Below are positions 2,153 through 40,570 of a stretch of 64,000 bases of DNA, piece by piece (position 1 is the first letter of the stretch; each line of letters opens with the position of its first letter). The translations under genes and the position numbers were made by a program. The notes beneath the pieces were generated by a model. It searched no databases. It saw only the letters and a program-made list of their open reading frames with translations, and was not told the origin of the DNA. The DNA is taken from NCBI RefSeq assembly GCF_058153355.1, contig NZ_CM177019.1; one strand, given 5' to 3'.

Positions 2153-4087
2153 TTAAGACGATTTACGTACGCGCAAATACCATTCGCACAGTAAACGCAC
2201 CTGTTTACGGGTGTAGCCTTTTTCCATCATACGGTCGACAAAATCGTCGTGTTTCTTCTGCTCGTCGGTTGACGTTTTGGCGTTAAACGAAATAACTGGC
2301 AACAGCTCCTCGGTATTAGAGAACATTTTCTTCTCAATAACCGTGCGCAGTTTTTCATAGCTGGTCCAGTTCGGATTGCGTCCGCTGTTATTCGCTCTGG
2401 CGCGCAGTACGAAGTTGACAATCTCGTTGCGGAAATCTTTTGGATTACTGATCCCCGCCGGTTTCTCAATTTTCTCTAGCTCAGCGTTGAGAGATTCGCG
2501 GTCAAATAGCTGCCCGGTATCCGGGTCGCGATACTCCTGATCCTGAATCCAGAAATCTGCATACGTGACATAACGGTCAAAAATGTTTTGTCCATATTCA
2601 GAATAGGATTCAAGATACGCAGTCTGAATCTCTTTACCGATAAACTCGGCATATTTCGGAATCAAGTAACCTTTCAGGAACTCGAGATAACGCTCAGCCT
2701 GCTCCTGAGGGAACTGCTCGCGCTCGATCTGCTGTTCCAGGACGTAGAACAGATGAACAGGGTTTGCTGCCACTTCCACGTGGTCGAAGTTGAACACGCG
2801 AGAGAGGATCTTAAACGCAAAACGCGTGGACAGACCGTTCATCCCTTCATCAACGCCTGCGTAGTCTCGATATTCCTGATACGACTTGGCTTTCGGATCG
2901 GTGTCTTTCAGACTTTCGCCATCATAAACCCGCATCTTCGAATAAATGCTGGAGTTTTCCGGCTCTTTCAGACGCGAAAGAATGGAAAAACGAGACAGCG
3001 TTTCCAGCGTGCCAGGTGCGCATGGGGCGTGAGTCAGTTCACTGTGATTAAGCAATTTCTCGTAGATTTTGATCTCTTCGGAAATACGCAAGCAATATGG
3101 CACCTTCACGATATAAACACGATCGAGGAAGGCTTCGTTGTTCTTGTTATTACGGAAAGTGACCCATTCGGATTCGTTCGAATGGGCGAGAATAATCCCG
3201 TTAAACGGCAGGGCGGAGATACCTTCCGTCCCGTTGTAGTTACCTTCCTGAGTGGCGGTTAACAGGGGATGCAGCACTTTAATCGGTGCTTTAAACATCT
3301 CGACAAACTCCATGATCCCCTGGTTGGCGCGGCATAGTGCACCGGAATATCCGTAGGCGTCCGGATCGTTCTGCGCGTAGTGTTCGAGTTTACGGATATC
3401 GACTTTCCCTACCAGCGCTGAGATGTCCTGGTTGTTCTCATCGCCAGGTTCCGTTTTGGCGATAGCAATTTGTTGCAGAATTGACGGCCAGACCTTTACC
3501 ACCCGGAACTTAGTAATATCGCCACCAAATTCATGCAGGCGTTTTGCTGCCCACGGCGACATGATGGTGCCAAGATAGCGTCGAGGAATGCCATACTCTT
3601 TTTCCAGAATCTGCGCATCTTCTTGCGGATTGAAAAGACAGAACGGATGATCGTTGACCGGGCTCCGCTCACCGTTAGCGCTTAATACATAGATCGGCAC
3701 GAGCTGCATTAATGATTTCAGTCGCTCAGCAAGCGATGATTTACCCCCACCCACAGGCCCCAGCAGATACAGGATTTGTTTCTTCTCCTCCAGCCCCTGA
3801 GCCGCGTGTTTCAGATAAGAGACAATCTGTTCAATCGCGTCTTCCATGCCGTAAAACTCTTCAAAGGCCGGGTAACGTGCAATGACCCGGTTAGAAAAGA
3901 GTCGAGAAAGTCTGGGTTCCTGGGCTGTATCGACCATGACAGGCTCACCGATAGCCATCAATAGCCGCTCAGCCGCGTTGGCATAAGCACTGCGATCTTG
4001 CCGACAAGTGGTAAGAAACTCCTGCAGTGTGAACTCTTCGTCCTTGGCAGCTTCATATCGCTGGCGATAGTGATCGAATATATTCAT
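2153..4087 (-). CDS. yeaG: PrkA-family Ser/Thr protein kinase YeaG
   Basis: 644-aa ORF with Walker A-like GPVGGGKSS motif; synteny. Confidence 0.9.
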   Translation of the reverse strand: MNIFDHYRQRYEAAKDEEFTLQEFLTTCRQDRSAYANAAERLLMAIGEPVMVDTAQEPRLSRLFSNRVIARYPAFEEFYGMEDAIEQIVSYLKHAAQGLEEKKQILYLLGPVGGGKSSLAERLKSLMQLVPIYVLSANGERSPVNDHPFCLFNPQEDAQILEKEYGIPRRYLGTIMSPWAAKRLHEFGGDITKFRVVKVWPSILQQIAIAKTEPGDENNQDISALVGKVDIRKLEHYAQNDPDAYGYSGALCRANQGIMEFVEMFKAPIKVLHPLLTATQEGNYNGTEGISALPFNGIILAHSNESEWVTFRNNKNNEAFLDRVYIVKVPYCLRISEEIKIYEKLLNHSELTHAPCAPGTLETLSRFSILSRLKEPENSSIYSKMRVYDGESLKDTDPKAKSYQEYRDYAGVDEGMNGLSTRFAFKILSRVFNFDHVEVAANPVHLFYVLEQQIEREQFPQEQAERYLEFLKGYLIPKYAEFIGKEIQTAYLESYSEYGQNIFDRYVTYADFWIQDQEYRDPDTGQLFDRESLNAELEKIEKPAGISNPKDFRNEIVNFVLRARANNSGRNPNWTSYEKLRTVIEKKMFSNTEELLPVISFNAKTSTDEQKKHDDFVDRMMEKGYTRKQVRLLCEWYLRVRKSS

Positions 4088-4522
4088 GGTATGCCGTCCT
4101 TTCGTTTTTTAGCACAGGTTAAGAGCCGTTCATATGAATAGTAGAGGCTCCCGGAAGAGGTAAACTGAACGACGTCTCTTGCTAAAACACAGCAACTCTC
4201 ATGCCATTTTAACGACGATGAGAACAACGTGCCCGGTGATACACCTTCAAAATTAAGCGTAGATGGCAAATGGAAAACTTGCCTGCACGGCTTTCTTAAT
4301 TTCAATGGCATATCAACAACTCATCCATAAAATTTGCATAATTAATGTAAAGACCAGGGTCGCCAGTAACGCGTAATTCATTTGGCTGTAAGCGTGGTGT
4401 CATCTGCGTCAGGAAAATTAAACAGTTACTTTAAAAAATGAAAACGTAAAAAGGTTGGGTTTCGATGTATTGACGGGTAAACTTTGTCGCCCGCTAAACA
4501 TTTGTTTAAGGAATGATTAATT

Positions 4523-28421: not shown

Positions 28422-29128
28422 CAGGCATTCCTCTTCTGGCGTTCAAGCCATATTTTTTTCGCCATAAAAATCACCACGGTCAGGGCAAACAGAATAAACA
28501 GTCCGGTGACAAACCAGAAGGTACCGCCCGTTAACATACTGCCCGCCCAGGAATAAACAATAGTCGCCGGTAATTGACCAAGCCCGGTGGCGATAAAAAA
28601 CGAGCGAAAACGTATTGACGTCAAACCGGCAGCATAGCTGATTGGATCGAAAGGGACAAAAGGCAATAACCGGCATACCAGGATAGTGTGTTTGCCGTAG
28701 CGAGTGAAAAAGCCGTCCATACTGTCAAGCACGGTTTTACCGGTTAATTTTTCCACCACTTCGCGGCCCATCACTCTGGCGATAAAAAAGCATAGCGCCG
28801 CGCCTGCCATAGAACTGGTCCACGACAGCAAGCCCCCCCAGAACGCGCCAAACAACGACGCATTAGCAAAGGTAATTAAAAACGCAGGCAGCGGTGCAGC
28901 AATGGCCTGTAAAATCATCAAAATGAACGAGACAACGGCTGCCAGTGCGCCGTAAGACTGAATAAAGCGCTCTATACCCTGTTGGTCCACGGCGGCAAAC
29001 GCCGCAACGCTGCGATTGATAAACTGATGGACGCCGGGAAGCAGTGCCCATGCCAGCAGCATAGCGAACAACAGGATGATGAGGGTTATACGGTAGTACC
29101 AGATTTTACGCGATTGCATCTTCATCAT
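28421..29128 (-). CDS. ydjZ: DedA/TVP38-family inner membrane protein YdjZ
   Basis: 235-aa membrane ORF; synteny. Confidence 0.8.
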   Translation of the reverse strand: MMKMQSRKIWYYRITLIILLFAMLLAWALLPGVHQFINRSVAAFAAVDQQGIERFIQSYGALAAVVSFILMILQAIAAPLPAFLITFANASLFGAFWGGLLSWTSSMAGAALCFFIARVMGREVVEKLTGKTVLDSMDGFFTRYGKHTILVCRLLPFVPFDPISYAAGLTSIRFRSFFIATGLGQLPATIVYSWAGSMLTGGTFWFVTGLFILFALTVVIFMAKKIWLERQKRNA

Positions 29129-29824: not shown

Positions 29825-30535
29825 CTATCCTTCTTTTTTTGGGTGAGTAAGTGGGCTGCGGCGCGAAGCAGACAGATCCACGTGTTTGTGTCGGGCGTAG
29901 AGTTTGGCAAGCTGGACGAGAATAAACAGTGCAAGGCCCGCCAGACAGAGTTGTAAAATAAAGCGCAGCGTAATGCCTTCACTGGCGAGATCGCTGGCCA
30001 TCACGGTATAAATAACGATACCGGGCAGGGTAGTGAGTGCCGAAATAAAGGTATAAGGCCAGAAGGCGATAGTGGTTAATCCGTAGGCGTAATTTTGAAT
30101 ATTGTAAGGAAACAGCGGGATTAAGCGGGTAAGAATTAAAAAATCGATACCGTTATGTGCAATGCCTTTTTCAATGGCCTGGAAGGTATGGCTGTGACCA
30201 ACGTATTTCAGCAATAAATCGCGCCCCAAAAAGCGTGCCAACAGGAATGAACTCGAGGAGGCCAGCGTAGCGGCAATTAATGAGAGTAGTGTCCCTAAGA
30301 TCGGGCCAAAAACTATGCCTCCAGTGATCACCAGTATGCTTCCTGGTAACAGAAAGAGGGTGGCAATGATGAATAACACAATATAAAGGCAATAACCGAA
30401 CAATCCGCTCTGGCGAATGAGAGTTTGTAAGTGGGGTAAATCGGTGAGCAGATCGAATAAACCGCAAGCGTGGATAGCGTAAATGACCAGCGCAAAAATA
30501 AAACAGGCAAAAAGAAATTTACGCTCAGCGTTCAT
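29825..30535 (-). CDS. ydjX: DedA/TVP38-family inner membrane protein YdjX
   Basis: ORF trimmed to MNAERKFLFACFIF (236 aa). Confidence 0.8.
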   Translation of the reverse strand: MNAERKFLFACFIFALVIYAIHACGLFDLLTDLPHLQTLIRQSGLFGYCLYIVLFIIATLFLLPGSILVITGGIVFGPILGTLLSLIAATLASSSSFLLARFLGRDLLLKYVGHSHTFQAIEKGIAHNGIDFLILTRLIPLFPYNIQNYAYGLTTIAFWPYTFISALTTLPGIVIYTVMASDLASEGITLRFILQLCLAGLALFILVQLAKLYARHKHVDLSASRRSPLTHPKKEG

Positions 30536-30701: not shown

Positions 30702-31508
30702 TTAGCGGCGGAAGGTCGCCCACACAGGCGCGTGATCGGACGGTTTTTCCATGCTGCGGATTTCATAGTCGATGCCGGTTTCTACGCAACAGTCTGCCAG
30801 CGGTTGGCTGGCGAGCAGCAGGTCGATACGCAGACCACGGTTATCGTCAAAACCTTTTGAGCGGTAATCAAACCATGAGAAACGATCTGCTGTTTCCGGA
30901 TTCGCATGGCGGAAGGTATCCACCAGCCCCCAACTTATCAGCCTGTCCATCCATTCACGTTCTTCAGGCAGGAAAGAACATTTACCAGTACGCAGCCAGC
31001 GTTTGCGGTTCTCTTCGCCAATGCCGATATCCAGGTCGGTGGGGCTGATATTCATATCGCCCATAATCAGCACCGGATTTTCGCGCTTAAGTTCGGTTTC
31101 GAGATAGTTTTGCAGGTTCTGATAAAACTGCGCTTTCGCCGGGAATTTAATCGGATGGTCGCGACTTTCGCCCTGTGGGAAGTAACCGTTGATCACGGTG
31201 ACATTACCCAGCGGCGAGGGGATTTCCGCCATAATAATTCGCCGTTGTGCCTCTTCGCCGTCGTCAGGGAAGCCGCGACGCACAGCAATCGGCGTCTCTT
31301 TGGTCAACAATGCCACGCCGTAATGGCCTTTCTGCCCGTGATAAAACACGTTGTAGCCGAGCTTTGCCACCTCTTCGAGCGGAAACATATCGTCATGAAC
31401 TTTTGTCTCCTGCAGGCCAATCACATCTGGTTGGTGCTTTTCGACGATGGCTTCAAGCTGGTGAGGTCTGGCGCGCAGGCCGTTGATATTAAAAGAGACA
31501 AATTTCAT
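30702..31508 (-). CDS. xthA: Exodeoxyribonuclease III
   Basis: ORF trimmed to [14 protein letters not shown] (268 aa), EEP-family motifs. Confidence 0.95.
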
Positions 31509-31865
31509 AGTCGCTGCCATTAATTCAGATAAAGAATGCGTGGATGGTAGCAGAATTTCGCTTTGCTTACCGCCTGTTGTTAAGTGATTTGATCGATGGT
31601 TGTTAATGATGTCAACGATGGCGCAAAAAATGCCCGCTTTTGGTGCGCGCTGCGTCAGAATGGCGCAGTAATTTCCAGTAAATTTCGTCAATGATCACAA
31701 TTCCAGAATTATATTTTACTTCTGCATAACATTGCGTTTTTTATTCTTTTTATTCACCTACATCGCAAACGTATTCACTTTATATGCACTTTAAATGCAT
31801 ATGGTTTGGTTATAACTCCTTGATTTCCAGTTAGCCACCGCGGTTTATGCACTTTTATCACTGGC

Positions 31866-31881
31866 TGGCACGAACCCTGCA
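31866..31881 (+). promoter_or_regulatory. Sigma-54 (-24/-12) promoter of astCADBE
   Basis: TGGCAC-gaacc-CTGCA matches TGGCAC-N5-TTGCA, about 75 nt upstream of astC start. Confidence 0.5.
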
Positions 31882-31932
31882 ATCTACATTTACAGCGCAA
31901 ACATTACTTATTATTAACATATAAATAACTAA

Positions 31933-37981
<6,049 letters not shown>

Positions 37982-40453: not shown

Positions 40454-40570
40454 TAACAGGCGGGGAGCGATTAAAAAAGAGGCGGGTCGATGACAAAGGT
40501 TACACCATGAGACGTGCTACGCCTGTCAGGCCTATTCGACTCCTGCAATGTATTGAATTTGCATAGTTTT

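What the first reader, a model, noticed from the sequence alone, without database searches (positions are those of the whole stretch)
31866..31881. Sigma-54 promoter element upstream of astC
TGGCAC-N5-CTGCA matches the -24/-12 consensus at the right distance from astC, consistent with NtrC-dependent expression of the arginine succinyltransferase operon.
Basis: partly seen in the sequence, partly recalled or inferred. Interest (0 to 1): 0.15.

Follow-up and report, generated by a model that had tools for sequence, protein, structure and literature searches.

The report
Known astC sigma-54 promoter
The 16-base motif is real. It is the already characterised sigma-54 (nitrogen-starvation) promoter of the Escherichia coli arginine-breakdown operon astCADBE, so the finding is correct but ordinary.

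Summary
TGGCAC-GAACC-CTGCA sits exactly at window 31866-31881 (+). It lies in the 445-bp xthA/astC intergenic region, 73 nt upstream of the astC ATG (31954). The region is 98.4% identical to E. coli K-12, and the motif and its flanks are identical. The 17-mer CTGGCACGAACCCTGCA is the site listed for astC in a published sigma-54 ChIP-seq map. There the peak centre is 1 bp from the motif centre, the predicted start is 62 nt before the ATG, and EcoCyc flags the promoter "experimentally confirmed". NtrC ChIP-seq, RpoN/NtrC gSELEX and a Salmonella sigma-54 ChIP-chip site agree.

My own tests support this. It is the top-scoring sigma-54 matrix match in the 64-kb window. It is present in 5424 of 5426 complete E. 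coli genomes. In 58 astC loci from about a dozen enterobacterial genera, CTGGCAY-N6-TGCA holds a fixed position while the spacer varies (17 variants). The only tandem pair of NtrC-like sites in the window lies about 233 and 253 bp upstream. ARG-box-like conserved blocks lie between that pair and the promoter.

One gap remains: the primary start-site mapping paper (Kiupakis & Reitzer 2002) could not be read here. Novelty: already known. Interest: very low.

The parts
31865..31881 (+). Sigma-54 core promoter astCp2: CTGGCACGAACCCTGCA. The -24 element is TGGCACG (31866-72, GG at 31867-68). The -12 element is TGCA (31878-81, GC at 31879-80). The variable spacer is 31873-77.
   Evidence: Sequence read. 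Identical to the K-12 sigma-54 ChIP-seq motif OS17. Top matrix hit in the window. Identity across 59 enterobacterial sequences is 0.99 for -24, 1.00 for -12 and 0.73 for the spacer.
31892..31892 (+). Predicted sigma-54 transcription start. It is 19 nt downstream of the motif centre (31873) and 12 nt downstream of the -12 C.
   Evidence: Uses the rule of PMC4591121 Table 1. It gives a 62-nt leader in the window, the same as the 62 listed for K-12 astC. This is a predicted start; I could not read the primer-extension mapping.
31892..31953 (+). A 62-nt AT-rich 5' leader with Shine-Dalgarno GAGG (31947-50). Blocks 31916-41 and 31945-53 are conserved.
   Evidence: Alignments. No conserved secondary structure was found.
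31883..31891 (+). Sigma-S-type extended -10 (TCTACATTT), immediately downstream of the -12 element. It is a candidate for the RpoS-dependent astC promoter that overlaps the sigma-54 promoter.
   Evidence: My own inference from the sequence and the consensus KCTAYRCTT recalled from memory. The block AATCTACATTTACAG is 0.92 conserved. RpoS dependence of astC is stated in PMC1413537 and bioRxiv 10.1101/082537. The exact element was not verified.
31631..31647 (.). NtrC-like site TGCCCGCTTTTGGTGCG, with 3 mismatches to TGCACC-N5-GGTGCA. Its centre is about -253 from the predicted start.
   Evidence: The site keeps 3 or fewer mismatches in 46 of 58 aligned species, and TGC and GC are near-invariant.
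31651..31667 (.). Second NtrC-like site TGCGTCAGAATGGCGCA, with 3 mismatches. Its centre is about -233, which is 20 bp (two helical turns) from the first.
   Evidence: This is the only pair of such sites at 18-23 bp spacing in the window (0.056 expected per shuffled window). It is weaker in other genera (mean 4.1 mismatches).
31619..31625 (.). Conserved TGGYGCA half-site, which could be a third, partial NtrC site.
   Evidence: Alignment and identity profile. The left half is poor in all species.
31676..31730 (.). Strongly conserved block AAATTTCG...GATCACAATTCCAGAATTATATTT...TGCATAA, about -216 to -162. It contains a TCACA (CRP-type) half-site and an ARG-box-like 18-mer (31703-20, 12/16).
   Evidence: CRP and ArgR control of the operon are stated in PMC3590144. 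Assigning proteins to this block is my inference.
31772..31803 (.). Conserved ARG-box-like block TATTCACTTTATATGCAC-TTT-AAATGCATA, centred about -105. It is a candidate ArgR operator lying between the NtrC sites and the promoter.
   Evidence: It holds the best ARG-box consensus score in the intergenic region (31773-90, 13/16). There are 2 hits of 13 or more against 0.27 in shuffles. Conservation is shown. ArgR is named as an accessory factor for this promoter.
31846..31864 (.). Conserved TTTATGCAYTTTT...CTGG block abutting the -24 element. Its function is unassigned.
   Evidence: Identity 0.87 against an intergenic mean of 0.70.
31954..33174 (+). astC, succinylornithine transaminase, first gene of astCADBE.
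   Evidence: NCBIfam PRK12381, 840 bits. RefSeq annotation of the K-12 counterpart.
33171..34205 (+). astA, arginine N-succinyltransferase.
   Evidence: NCBIfam PRK10456, 731 bits.
34202..35680 (+). astD, succinylglutamate-semialdehyde dehydrogenase. The start is approximate: the longest ORF begins at 34145, but the family match begins at residue 20.
   Evidence: NCBIfam PRK09457, 872 bits.
30702..31508 (-). xthA, exonuclease III, the divergent neighbour that bounds the 445-bp regulatory region.
   Evidence: NCBIfam PRK11756. K-12 annotation transferred through the alignment.

Best explanation
This is astCp2, the sigma-54 (RpoN)-dependent promoter of the arginine succinyltransferase operon astCADBE of Escherichia coli.

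Proposed mechanism:
- RNA polymerase carrying sigma-54 binds the -24 (TGGCACG) and -12 (TGCA) elements and sits there as a closed, inactive complex.
- Under nitrogen limitation, phosphorylated NtrC assembles on a distal enhancer. The best candidates are the tandem sites at 31631-47 and 31651-67, about 233-253 bp upstream.
- The enhancer reaches the promoter by DNA looping. NtrC then uses ATP hydrolysis to open the promoter, and transcription starts near 31892, giving a 62-nt leader before astC.
- ArgR with arginine, bound to ARG-box-like sequences between enhancer and promoter, acts as an accessory, architectural factor that raises expression.
- A sigma-S promoter overlapping the region just downstream of -12 drives the same operon in stationary phase or carbon starvation.

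What is shown: the motif and its identity to the ChIP-verified K-12 site; its conservation pattern; the published occupancy by sigma-54 and NtrC.

What is inferred: the exact start nucleotide; which sequences are the NtrC, ArgR and CRP sites; the sigma-S -10 assignment.
For: - The motif is at the stated coordinates with canonical GG-N10-GC spacing.
- It is the best sigma-54 matrix match in the window: 17.98 bits, rank 1, reached by 7 of 200 shuffles.
- The region is the E. coli xthA/astC spacer, 98.4% identical to K-12, with no difference between 31846 and 31937.
- PMC4591121 Table 1, row OS17: sigma-54 ChIP-seq peak centre 1830088; motif CTGGCACGAACCCTGCA centred at 1830087; gene astC; distance 62; EcoCyc 'C' = experimentally confirmed.
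- astCADBE is an NtrC ChIP-seq target (PMC4066584).
- RpoN and NtrC gSELEX peaks fall in the astC/xthA spacer, and astC is named among the experimentally confirmed RpoN targets (PMC8743547).
- A Salmonella LT2 sigma-54 ChIP-chip site, TGGCACGAATGCTGCAAT, lies upstream of astC (PMC3844500).
- astCp2 was tested as an NtrC-activated sigma-54 promoter in synthetic constructs, and an astCp-lacZ fusion responds to the Ntr system.
- The 60-nt core is present in 5424 of 5426 complete E. coli genomes and identical in 4571.
- In 58 astC loci from other enterobacterial species, CTGGCAY-N6-TGCA is at a fixed position with 17 spacer variants.
- No sigma-70-type -35/-10 promoter is detected on the astC strand anywhere in the spacer.
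- The only tandem NtrC-like pair in the window lies about 233 and 253 bp upstream. The chance of such a pair falling 100-400 bp upstream of a given promoter is about 3e-4.
Against: - The primary start-site mapping (Kiupakis & Reitzer 2002; Fraley et al. 1998; Lu & Abdelal 1999) could not be read. The start at 31892 is therefore a rule-based prediction, and 'experimentally confirmed' is second-hand.
- Each NtrC-like site has 3 mismatches, and singly such sites are no commoner than chance (32 found, 31.8 expected). The second site degrades in other genera.
- The NtrC ChIP-seq interval reported for astCADBE (1830021-1830101) overlaps the core promoter, not the position about 240 bp upstream where I place the enhancer. 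This may reflect ChIP resolution or looping, but it is unexplained.
- ARG-box matches are modest, 13/16 at best.
- The -12 element has C instead of the consensus T at -14. The promoter is reported as weak.
- No experiment exists for this particular strain.
Confidence: 0.95

Rival explanations
1. The motif is conserved for another reason. It could be part of the overlapping sigma-S (or sigma-70) promoter, or of an ArgR/CRP operator, with the sigma-54 resemblance incidental or only a silent binding site.
For: The operon is also RpoS-, CRP- and ArgR-controlled. Sequence on both sides of the motif is as conserved as the motif itself: TTTATGCAYTTTT upstream and AATCTACATTTACAG downstream. A sigma-S-like -10 abuts the -12 element. 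Most sigma-54 sites in E. coli are bound but transcriptionally silent under any one condition (PMC4591121).
Against: The conservation pattern fits sigma-54: invariant GG and GC exactly 10 nt apart, with a freely varying 5-nt spacer of 17 variants. Sigma-54 occupies the site in vivo and in vitro. Nitrogen-limited, NtrC-dependent expression of astC is documented. No sigma-70-type promoter is detected on this strand. An overlapping sigma-S promoter is an addition to the sigma-54 promoter, not an alternative.
Confidence: 0.03
2. It is a functional sigma-54 promoter, but it is activated mainly by an enhancer-binding protein other than NtrC, or from an enhancer elsewhere than 31631-31667.
For: The NtrC-like sites are poor matches, 3 mismatches each. 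The published NtrC ChIP-seq interval does not coincide with them.
Against: astCADBE is listed as a direct NtrC target by ChIP-seq, with citation of direct binding, and by gSELEX with purified NtrC. It is assigned to NtrC in Salmonella. The tandem 20-bp-spaced arrangement is unique in the window, and its first site is conserved.
Confidence: 0.04
3. It is a chance match to a short degenerate consensus, with no function.
For: With one mismatch allowed, the 11-base consensus occurs 6 times in the window against 3.4 expected. The exact TGGCAC-N6-TGCA pattern appears in 26 of 100 shuffles.
Against: It has the top matrix score in the window, correct orientation and distance to astC, near-universal presence in E. 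coli, positional conservation across about a dozen genera, and published ChIP-seq occupancy.
Confidence: 0.005

Closest known systems
E. coli K-12 astCp2, the sigma-54/NtrC promoter of astCADBE (EcoCyc/RegulonDB; Kiupakis & Reitzer 2002, J Bacteriol 184:2940)
   Same: Same 17-mer CTGGCACGAACCCTGCA, same flanks, same gene order xthA<->astCADBE, and the same 62-nt predicted leader. The 445-bp spacer is 98.4% identical to K-12.
   Different: Seven substitutions in the 450 bp compared, all outside the core promoter: window 31524, 31537, 31563, 31760, 31838, 31843 and 31931. None touches the -24/-12 element or the NtrC-like sites. The window comes from a different E. coli lineage than K-12.
Salmonella enterica astC sigma-54 promoter (ChIP-chip site TGGCACGAATGCTGCAAT, PMC3844500; Lu & Abdelal 1999)
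   Same: Orthologous position, the same -24 and -12 elements, and NtrC assignment. The S. enterica subsp. arizonae locus aligns column for column.
   Different: The spacer sequence differs (GAATG/GAACG against GAACC). The upstream enhancer region has diverged.
glnHp2 and glnAp2, the other NtrC-dependent sigma-54 promoters of E. coli
   Same: -24/-12 architecture and a remote NtrC enhancer. Like glnHp2, astCp2 is a weak promoter that depends on an architectural protein between enhancer and promoter (IHF at glnHp2, ArgR at astC).
   Different: The enhancer is further away here, about -233/-253 by my assignment, compared with about -110/-140 at glnAp2 (from memory). ArgR-arginine rather than IHF is the accessory factor. 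A sigma-S promoter overlaps.
yeaG sigma-54 promoter, in the same window at 4191-4207 (-)
   Same: It is the second-best matrix hit in the window and is identical to ChIP-seq site OS18, ATGGCATGAGAGTTGCT. It is also in the NtrC regulon.
   Different: A different gene (PrkA-family kinase yeaG), the opposite strand, and a 93-nt leader.

Membership tests
Sigma-54 (RpoN) -24/-12 promoter | GG and GC dinucleotides separated by exactly 10 nt within TGGCAC-N5-TTGCW | tested here: met
   GG at 31867-68 and GC at 31879-80. Ten of 11 consensus positions match.
Sigma-54 (RpoN) -24/-12 promoter | Matrix score in the range of experimentally bound sites and above the local background | tested here: met
   17.98 bits with a matrix from 40 independent ChIP-seq sites. 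This is rank 1 in the window, above 78% of the training sites, and reached by 7 of 200 shuffles.
Sigma-54 (RpoN) -24/-12 promoter | Intergenic, oriented towards a gene, with a leader of typical length | tested here: met
   Plus strand, predicted start at 31892, 62 nt before the astC ATG. Table 1 leaders for confirmed promoters range from 1 to 84 nt.
Sigma-54 (RpoN) -24/-12 promoter | Occupancy by sigma-54 holoenzyme | tested here: met
   Not measured in this strain. It is met through literature on an identical sequence: K-12 ChIP-seq peak centred 1 bp from the motif, gSELEX with RpoN holoenzyme, and Salmonella ChIP-chip at the orthologous site.
Sigma-54 (RpoN) -24/-12 promoter | Evolutionary conservation of the two elements with a free spacer | tested here: met
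   In 59 sequences from about a dozen genera, identity is 0.99 for -24, 1.00 for -12, 0.73 for the spacer and 0.70 for the whole spacer region. There are 17 variants.
Sigma-54 (RpoN) -24/-12 promoter | Transcription start mapped about 12 nt downstream of the -12 GC, and lost in an rpoN mutant | not testable with these tools
   The primary papers (PMC135064, PMC107428, PMC93598) are not held. Only the EcoCyc 'experimentally confirmed' flag is available, second-hand.
NtrC (nitrogen-regulated, Ntr) regulon | Upstream enhancer with two or more NtrC sites (TGCACC-N5-GGTGCA) | tested here: inconclusive
   Two sites with 3 mismatches each, 20 bp apart, at about -253 and -233. This is the only such pair in the window (0.056 expected), and the first site is conserved. 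However, the single sites are no better than chance, and the published ChIP interval lies over the promoter rather than here.
NtrC (nitrogen-regulated, Ntr) regulon | NtrC binding and NtrC-dependent expression | tested here: met
   Literature only, for the identical K-12 locus: NtrC ChIP-seq, NtrC gSELEX, and the astCp-lacZ response to glnK deletion. Not measured in this strain.
ArgR-modulated promoter | Tandem 18-bp ARG boxes (WNTGAATWWWWATTCANW) separated by 3 bp | tested here: inconclusive
   The best box is 31773-90 at 13/16, with a partner scoring 10/16. Two hits of 13 or more compare with 0.27 in shuffles, p about 0.03. The blocks are conserved. ArgR's role is stated in the literature, but I could not obtain footprint coordinates.

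The most novel reading that the evidence does not exclude
Several conserved blocks in the spacer are not accounted for by the sigma-54, NtrC or ARG-box consensus. These are TTTATGCAYTTTT abutting the -24 element (31846-58), the invariant GATCACAATTCCAGAATTATATTT (31693-31716), and the conserved AT-rich leader (31916-41). They might bind an undescribed factor, or allow ArgR or another protein to act directly on the closed sigma-54 complex or on the overlapping sigma-S promoter, for example as a switch between the two sigma factors. They may equally be the published ArgR and CRP footprints, which I could not read.
Probability: 0.07. Interest if true: 0.25.

Novelty: already known. Interest (0 to 1): 0.04.

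Why it matters
It matters little beyond correct annotation. The element is a textbook example of a nitrogen-regulated sigma-54 promoter, which links arginine catabolism to NtrC, ArgR and RpoS control. Confirming it shows that the first-stage reader can recognise such promoters from raw sequence. The matrix scan also recovers the two known sigma-54 promoters of this window, astC and yeaG, as its top two hits. No open question is advanced.

Tried and rejected
- I tried to read the primary mapping papers: Kiupakis & Reitzer 2002 by DOI and PMC135064; Reitzer & Schneider 2001, PMC99035; Lu & Abdelal 1999, PMC93598; Fraley 1998, PMC107428; Schneider 1998, PMC107427; Cho 2012, PMC3777760; Thomason 2015, PMC4288677. 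None is held, so the mapped start site could not be compared directly.
- Literature searches for 'astCp', and for astC with primer extension or transcription start site, gave no paper with start coordinates.
- The supplement of the RpoS preprint, which holds the oligonucleotides for the astC core promoter, is not held.
- Single-site NtrC consensus scan: 32 hits against 31.8 expected, so it is uninformative on its own. Only the tandem arrangement and its conservation carry weight.
- ARG-box consensus scan: modest scores, and site boundaries cannot be assigned with confidence.
- Sigma-70 promoter scan: nothing on the astC strand; the one weak hit on the opposite strand is within chance.
- The 5' leader was tested for conserved RNA structure. 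Only a 5-pair hairpin over the start codon appeared, with no covariation, so I rejected a structured leader.
- Rfam found no RNA family in the spacer.
- I checked whether the next matrix hits (29040-56, 30225-41, 3978-94) are published sigma-54 sites. They are not in the main text of PMC4591121.

Full report
**Observation.** GG (31867-68) and GC (31879-80) are separated by 10 nt, which is the defining geometry of a sigma-54 -24/-12 promoter. The only departure from TGGCAC-N5-TTGCW is a C at 31877.

The motif lies in a 445-bp intergenic region. On one side is xthA (30702-31508, minus strand). On the other is a 406-codon ORF starting at 31954 that matches the astC family models (PRK12381, 840 bits). 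It is followed by astA and astD.

**Is it more than chance?** The bare consensus is weak evidence. With one mismatch allowed there are 6 matches in the window against 3.4 expected. The exact TGGCAC-N6-TGCA occurs once against 0.29 expected.

I therefore built a position weight matrix from 40 other ChIP-seq-verified intergenic sigma-54 sites of E. coli, taken from Table 1 of PMC4591121. The astC and yeaG sites were left out. The astC site is the best match on either strand of the 64-kb window, at 17.98 bits. It scores above 78% of the training sites, and only 7 of 200 shuffled windows reach that score anywhere. The second-best hit is the known yeaG promoter (see "Other things seen" below). So the scan recovers exactly the two documented sigma-54 promoters of this stretch.

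**Identity of the locus.**
- The spacer matches 5424 of 5426 complete E. coli genomes and is annotated as the region upstream of astC.
- Aligned to K-12 it shows seven substitutions in 450 bp, none between 31846 and 31930.
- A 60-nt core (31846-31905) is found in 5424 genomes and is identical in 4571.

**What is published for this exact sequence.**
- Bonocora et al. [quoted passage not shown] The motif CTGGCACGAACCCTGCA is centred at 1830087, the downstream gene is astC, the predicted start is 62 nt before the gene, and the flag is 'C'.
- The table legend defines 'C' as experimentally confirmed in EcoCyc. It defines the predicted start as 19 nt downstream of the motif centre. Applied to the window (motif centre 31873), this gives a start at 31892 and the same 62-nt leader.
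- Brown et al. 2014 (PMC4066584) list astCADBE among NtrC ChIP-seq targets, with 'direct binding' and 'gene expression analysis' as prior evidence.
- Shimada et al. 2021 (PMC8743547) recover the astC/xthA spacer by gSELEX with RpoN holoenzyme, with NtrC, and with both. They name astC among the few experimentally confirmed RpoN targets.
- In Salmonella Typhimurium, a sigma-54 ChIP-chip site TGGCACGAATGCTGCAAT lies upstream of astC, and the operon is assigned to NtrC (PMC3844500).
- astCp2 has been used as an NtrC-activated sigma-54 promoter. It is described as weak and as naturally bound by ArgR (bioRxiv 10.1101/086108; PMC7045595). An astCp-lacZ fusion responds to the Ntr system (PMC4958250).
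[quoted passage not shown] They also state that ArgR is accessory rather than essential (PMC3037356).

**Independent comparative test.**
- I scanned one genome per species for a codon-degenerate pattern of the AstC N-terminus (ENFDEWM). The search was thus blind to the promoter. It returned 58 astC loci from Escherichia, Salmonella, Citrobacter, Enterobacter, Lelliottia, Leclercia, Silvania, Kosakonia, Phytobacter, Huaxiibacter, Pseudenterobacter and unnamed Enterobacteriaceae.
- In every one, the best GG-N10-GC match is CTGGCA(C/T)-N6-TGCA. It sits 108-110 nt upstream of the anchor.
- Across the 59 sequences, identity to the window base is 0.99 for CTGGCACG, 1.00 for TGCA, 0.73 for the five spacer positions and 0.70 for the spacer region as a whole. 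There are 17 different versions of the 17-mer.
- Invariant elements with a freely drifting spacer are what selection on sigma-54 recognition predicts. They are not what an operator covering the whole segment would give.

**Surroundings.**
- About 233 and 253 bp upstream of the predicted start lie two NtrC-like sites, TGCCCGCTTTTGGTGCG (31631-47) and TGCGTCAGAATGGCGCA (31651-67). Each has 3 mismatches to TGCACC-N5-GGTGCA.
  - Singly, such matches are at chance level (32 against 31.8).
  - This is, however, the only pair at 18-23 bp spacing in the window (0.056 expected).
  - The first site keeps 3 or fewer mismatches in 46 of 58 species.
  - A conserved TGGYGCA half-site precedes them (31619-25).
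- Between this putative enhancer and the promoter there are two conserved blocks, 31676-31730 and 31772-31803. They contain the best ARG-box-like 18-mers of the spacer (13/16 at 31773-90) and a TCACA half-site. This fits the published roles of ArgR and CRP, but I could not obtain footprint coordinates.
- Immediately downstream of the -12 element, AATCTACATTTACAG is 0.92 conserved and contains TCTACATTT, a good sigma-S-type extended -10. That reading is my own inference. It would place the RpoS-dependent start a few nucleotides from the sigma-54 start.
- No sigma-70-type -35/-10 promoter is detected on the astC strand.
- The 62-nt leader is AT-rich and conserved but has no conserved fold.

**Mechanism.**
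- Sigma-54 holoenzyme occupies the -24/-12 element as a closed complex. This is shown by ChIP-seq for the identical sequence.
- Under nitrogen limitation, NtrC-P bound upstream contacts it by looping and opens the promoter. NtrC binding and dependence are shown in the literature. The location of the enhancer at 31609-31667 is my inference.
- ArgR-arginine bound in between assists. Its role is stated in the literature, and the site assignment is inferred.
- In stationary phase, sigma-S uses an overlapping promoter. The dependence is stated in the literature, and the element is inferred.

**Weak points.**
None of the primary papers is in the held library.
- The NtrC ChIP-seq interval reported for astCADBE (1830021-1830101) lies over the core promoter. 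It does not lie about 240 bp upstream, where I place the enhancer. The same paper's intervals for nac, rutA, ddpX and yeaG also coincide with the sigma-54 motifs of Table 1. This probably reflects resolution or looping, but I cannot show that.

**Verdict.** The element is the known astCp2 promoter, so it is already known and of very low interest.

**Other things seen in the window.**
- The yeaG sigma-54 promoter is at 4191-4207 (-): ATGGCATGAGAGTTGCT, 16.05 bits, identical to ChIP-seq site OS18. It lies upstream of a 644-aa PrkA-family kinase gene.
- A group II intron with a reverse transcriptase/maturase ORF lies between topB and gdhA.
- There is an ES036 (CssrF) sRNA match.

Noticed in passing
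window 4191-4207 (-), upstream of ORF 2153-4087 (-): A second known sigma-54 promoter. ATGGCATGAGAGTTGCT is the second-best matrix hit in the window (16.05 bits) and is identical to the K-12 ChIP-seq site OS18 for yeaG. The downstream 644-aa ORF is a PrkA-family serine kinase (YeaG). The predicted start at 4180 gives the same 93-nt leader as in the published table.
   Followed up: yes
window about 17800-20106 (-): A group II intron. Rfam matches RF02012 (D1-D4, 19959-20106, 112 bits) and RF00029 (domains V/VI, 17800-17876, 65 bits). They flank a 580-aa reverse transcriptase/maturase ORF (17881-19623, TIGR04416, 371 bits). The intron sits in the gap between the convergent genes topB (ends 17779) and gdhA (ends 20222).
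   Followed up: partly
window 40528-40570 (-): An Rfam match to the ES036 (CssrF) sRNA: 42.9 bits against a gathering score of 37.6.
   Followed up: no
window 31511-31960 compared with E. coli genomes: The astC/xthA spacer is 98.4% identical to K-12, and only 2 of 5424 complete genomes reach 99% or more (the best is strain MFDS1022581 at 99.1%). The window therefore comes from a sparsely represented E. coli lineage. Two of the matches are on records typed as plasmids.
   Followed up: no
K-12 coordinates 1830021-1830101 (about window 31859-31939): The published NtrC ChIP-seq interval for astCADBE overlaps the sigma-54 core promoter, not the NtrC-like sites about 240 bp upstream. The same holds for that paper's intervals at nac, rutA, ddpX and yeaG when compared with the sigma-54 motif centres. 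This is unexplained; it could reflect resolution, looping cross-links or binning.
   Followed up: partly
window 29040-29056 (-), 30225-30241 (-), 3978-3994 (+): The next-best sigma-54 matrix hits: CTGGCATGGGCACTGCT at 14.1 bits, TTGGCACGCTTTTTGGG at 12.9 and TTGGCATAAGCACTGCG at 12.9. All are below the mean of the maximum score in shuffled windows (14.7). None is listed in the main text of the ChIP-seq paper. They are probably chance matches.
   Followed up: partly
window 31846-31858, 31693-31716 and 31916-31941: Blocks of near-invariant sequence across about a dozen enterobacterial genera that I could not assign to sigma-54, NtrC or a clear ARG box: TTTATGCAYTTTT abutting the -24 element, GATCACAATTCCAGAATTATATTT, and the AT-rich leader segment AACATATAAATAAC...ATTTAC.
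   Followed up: partly
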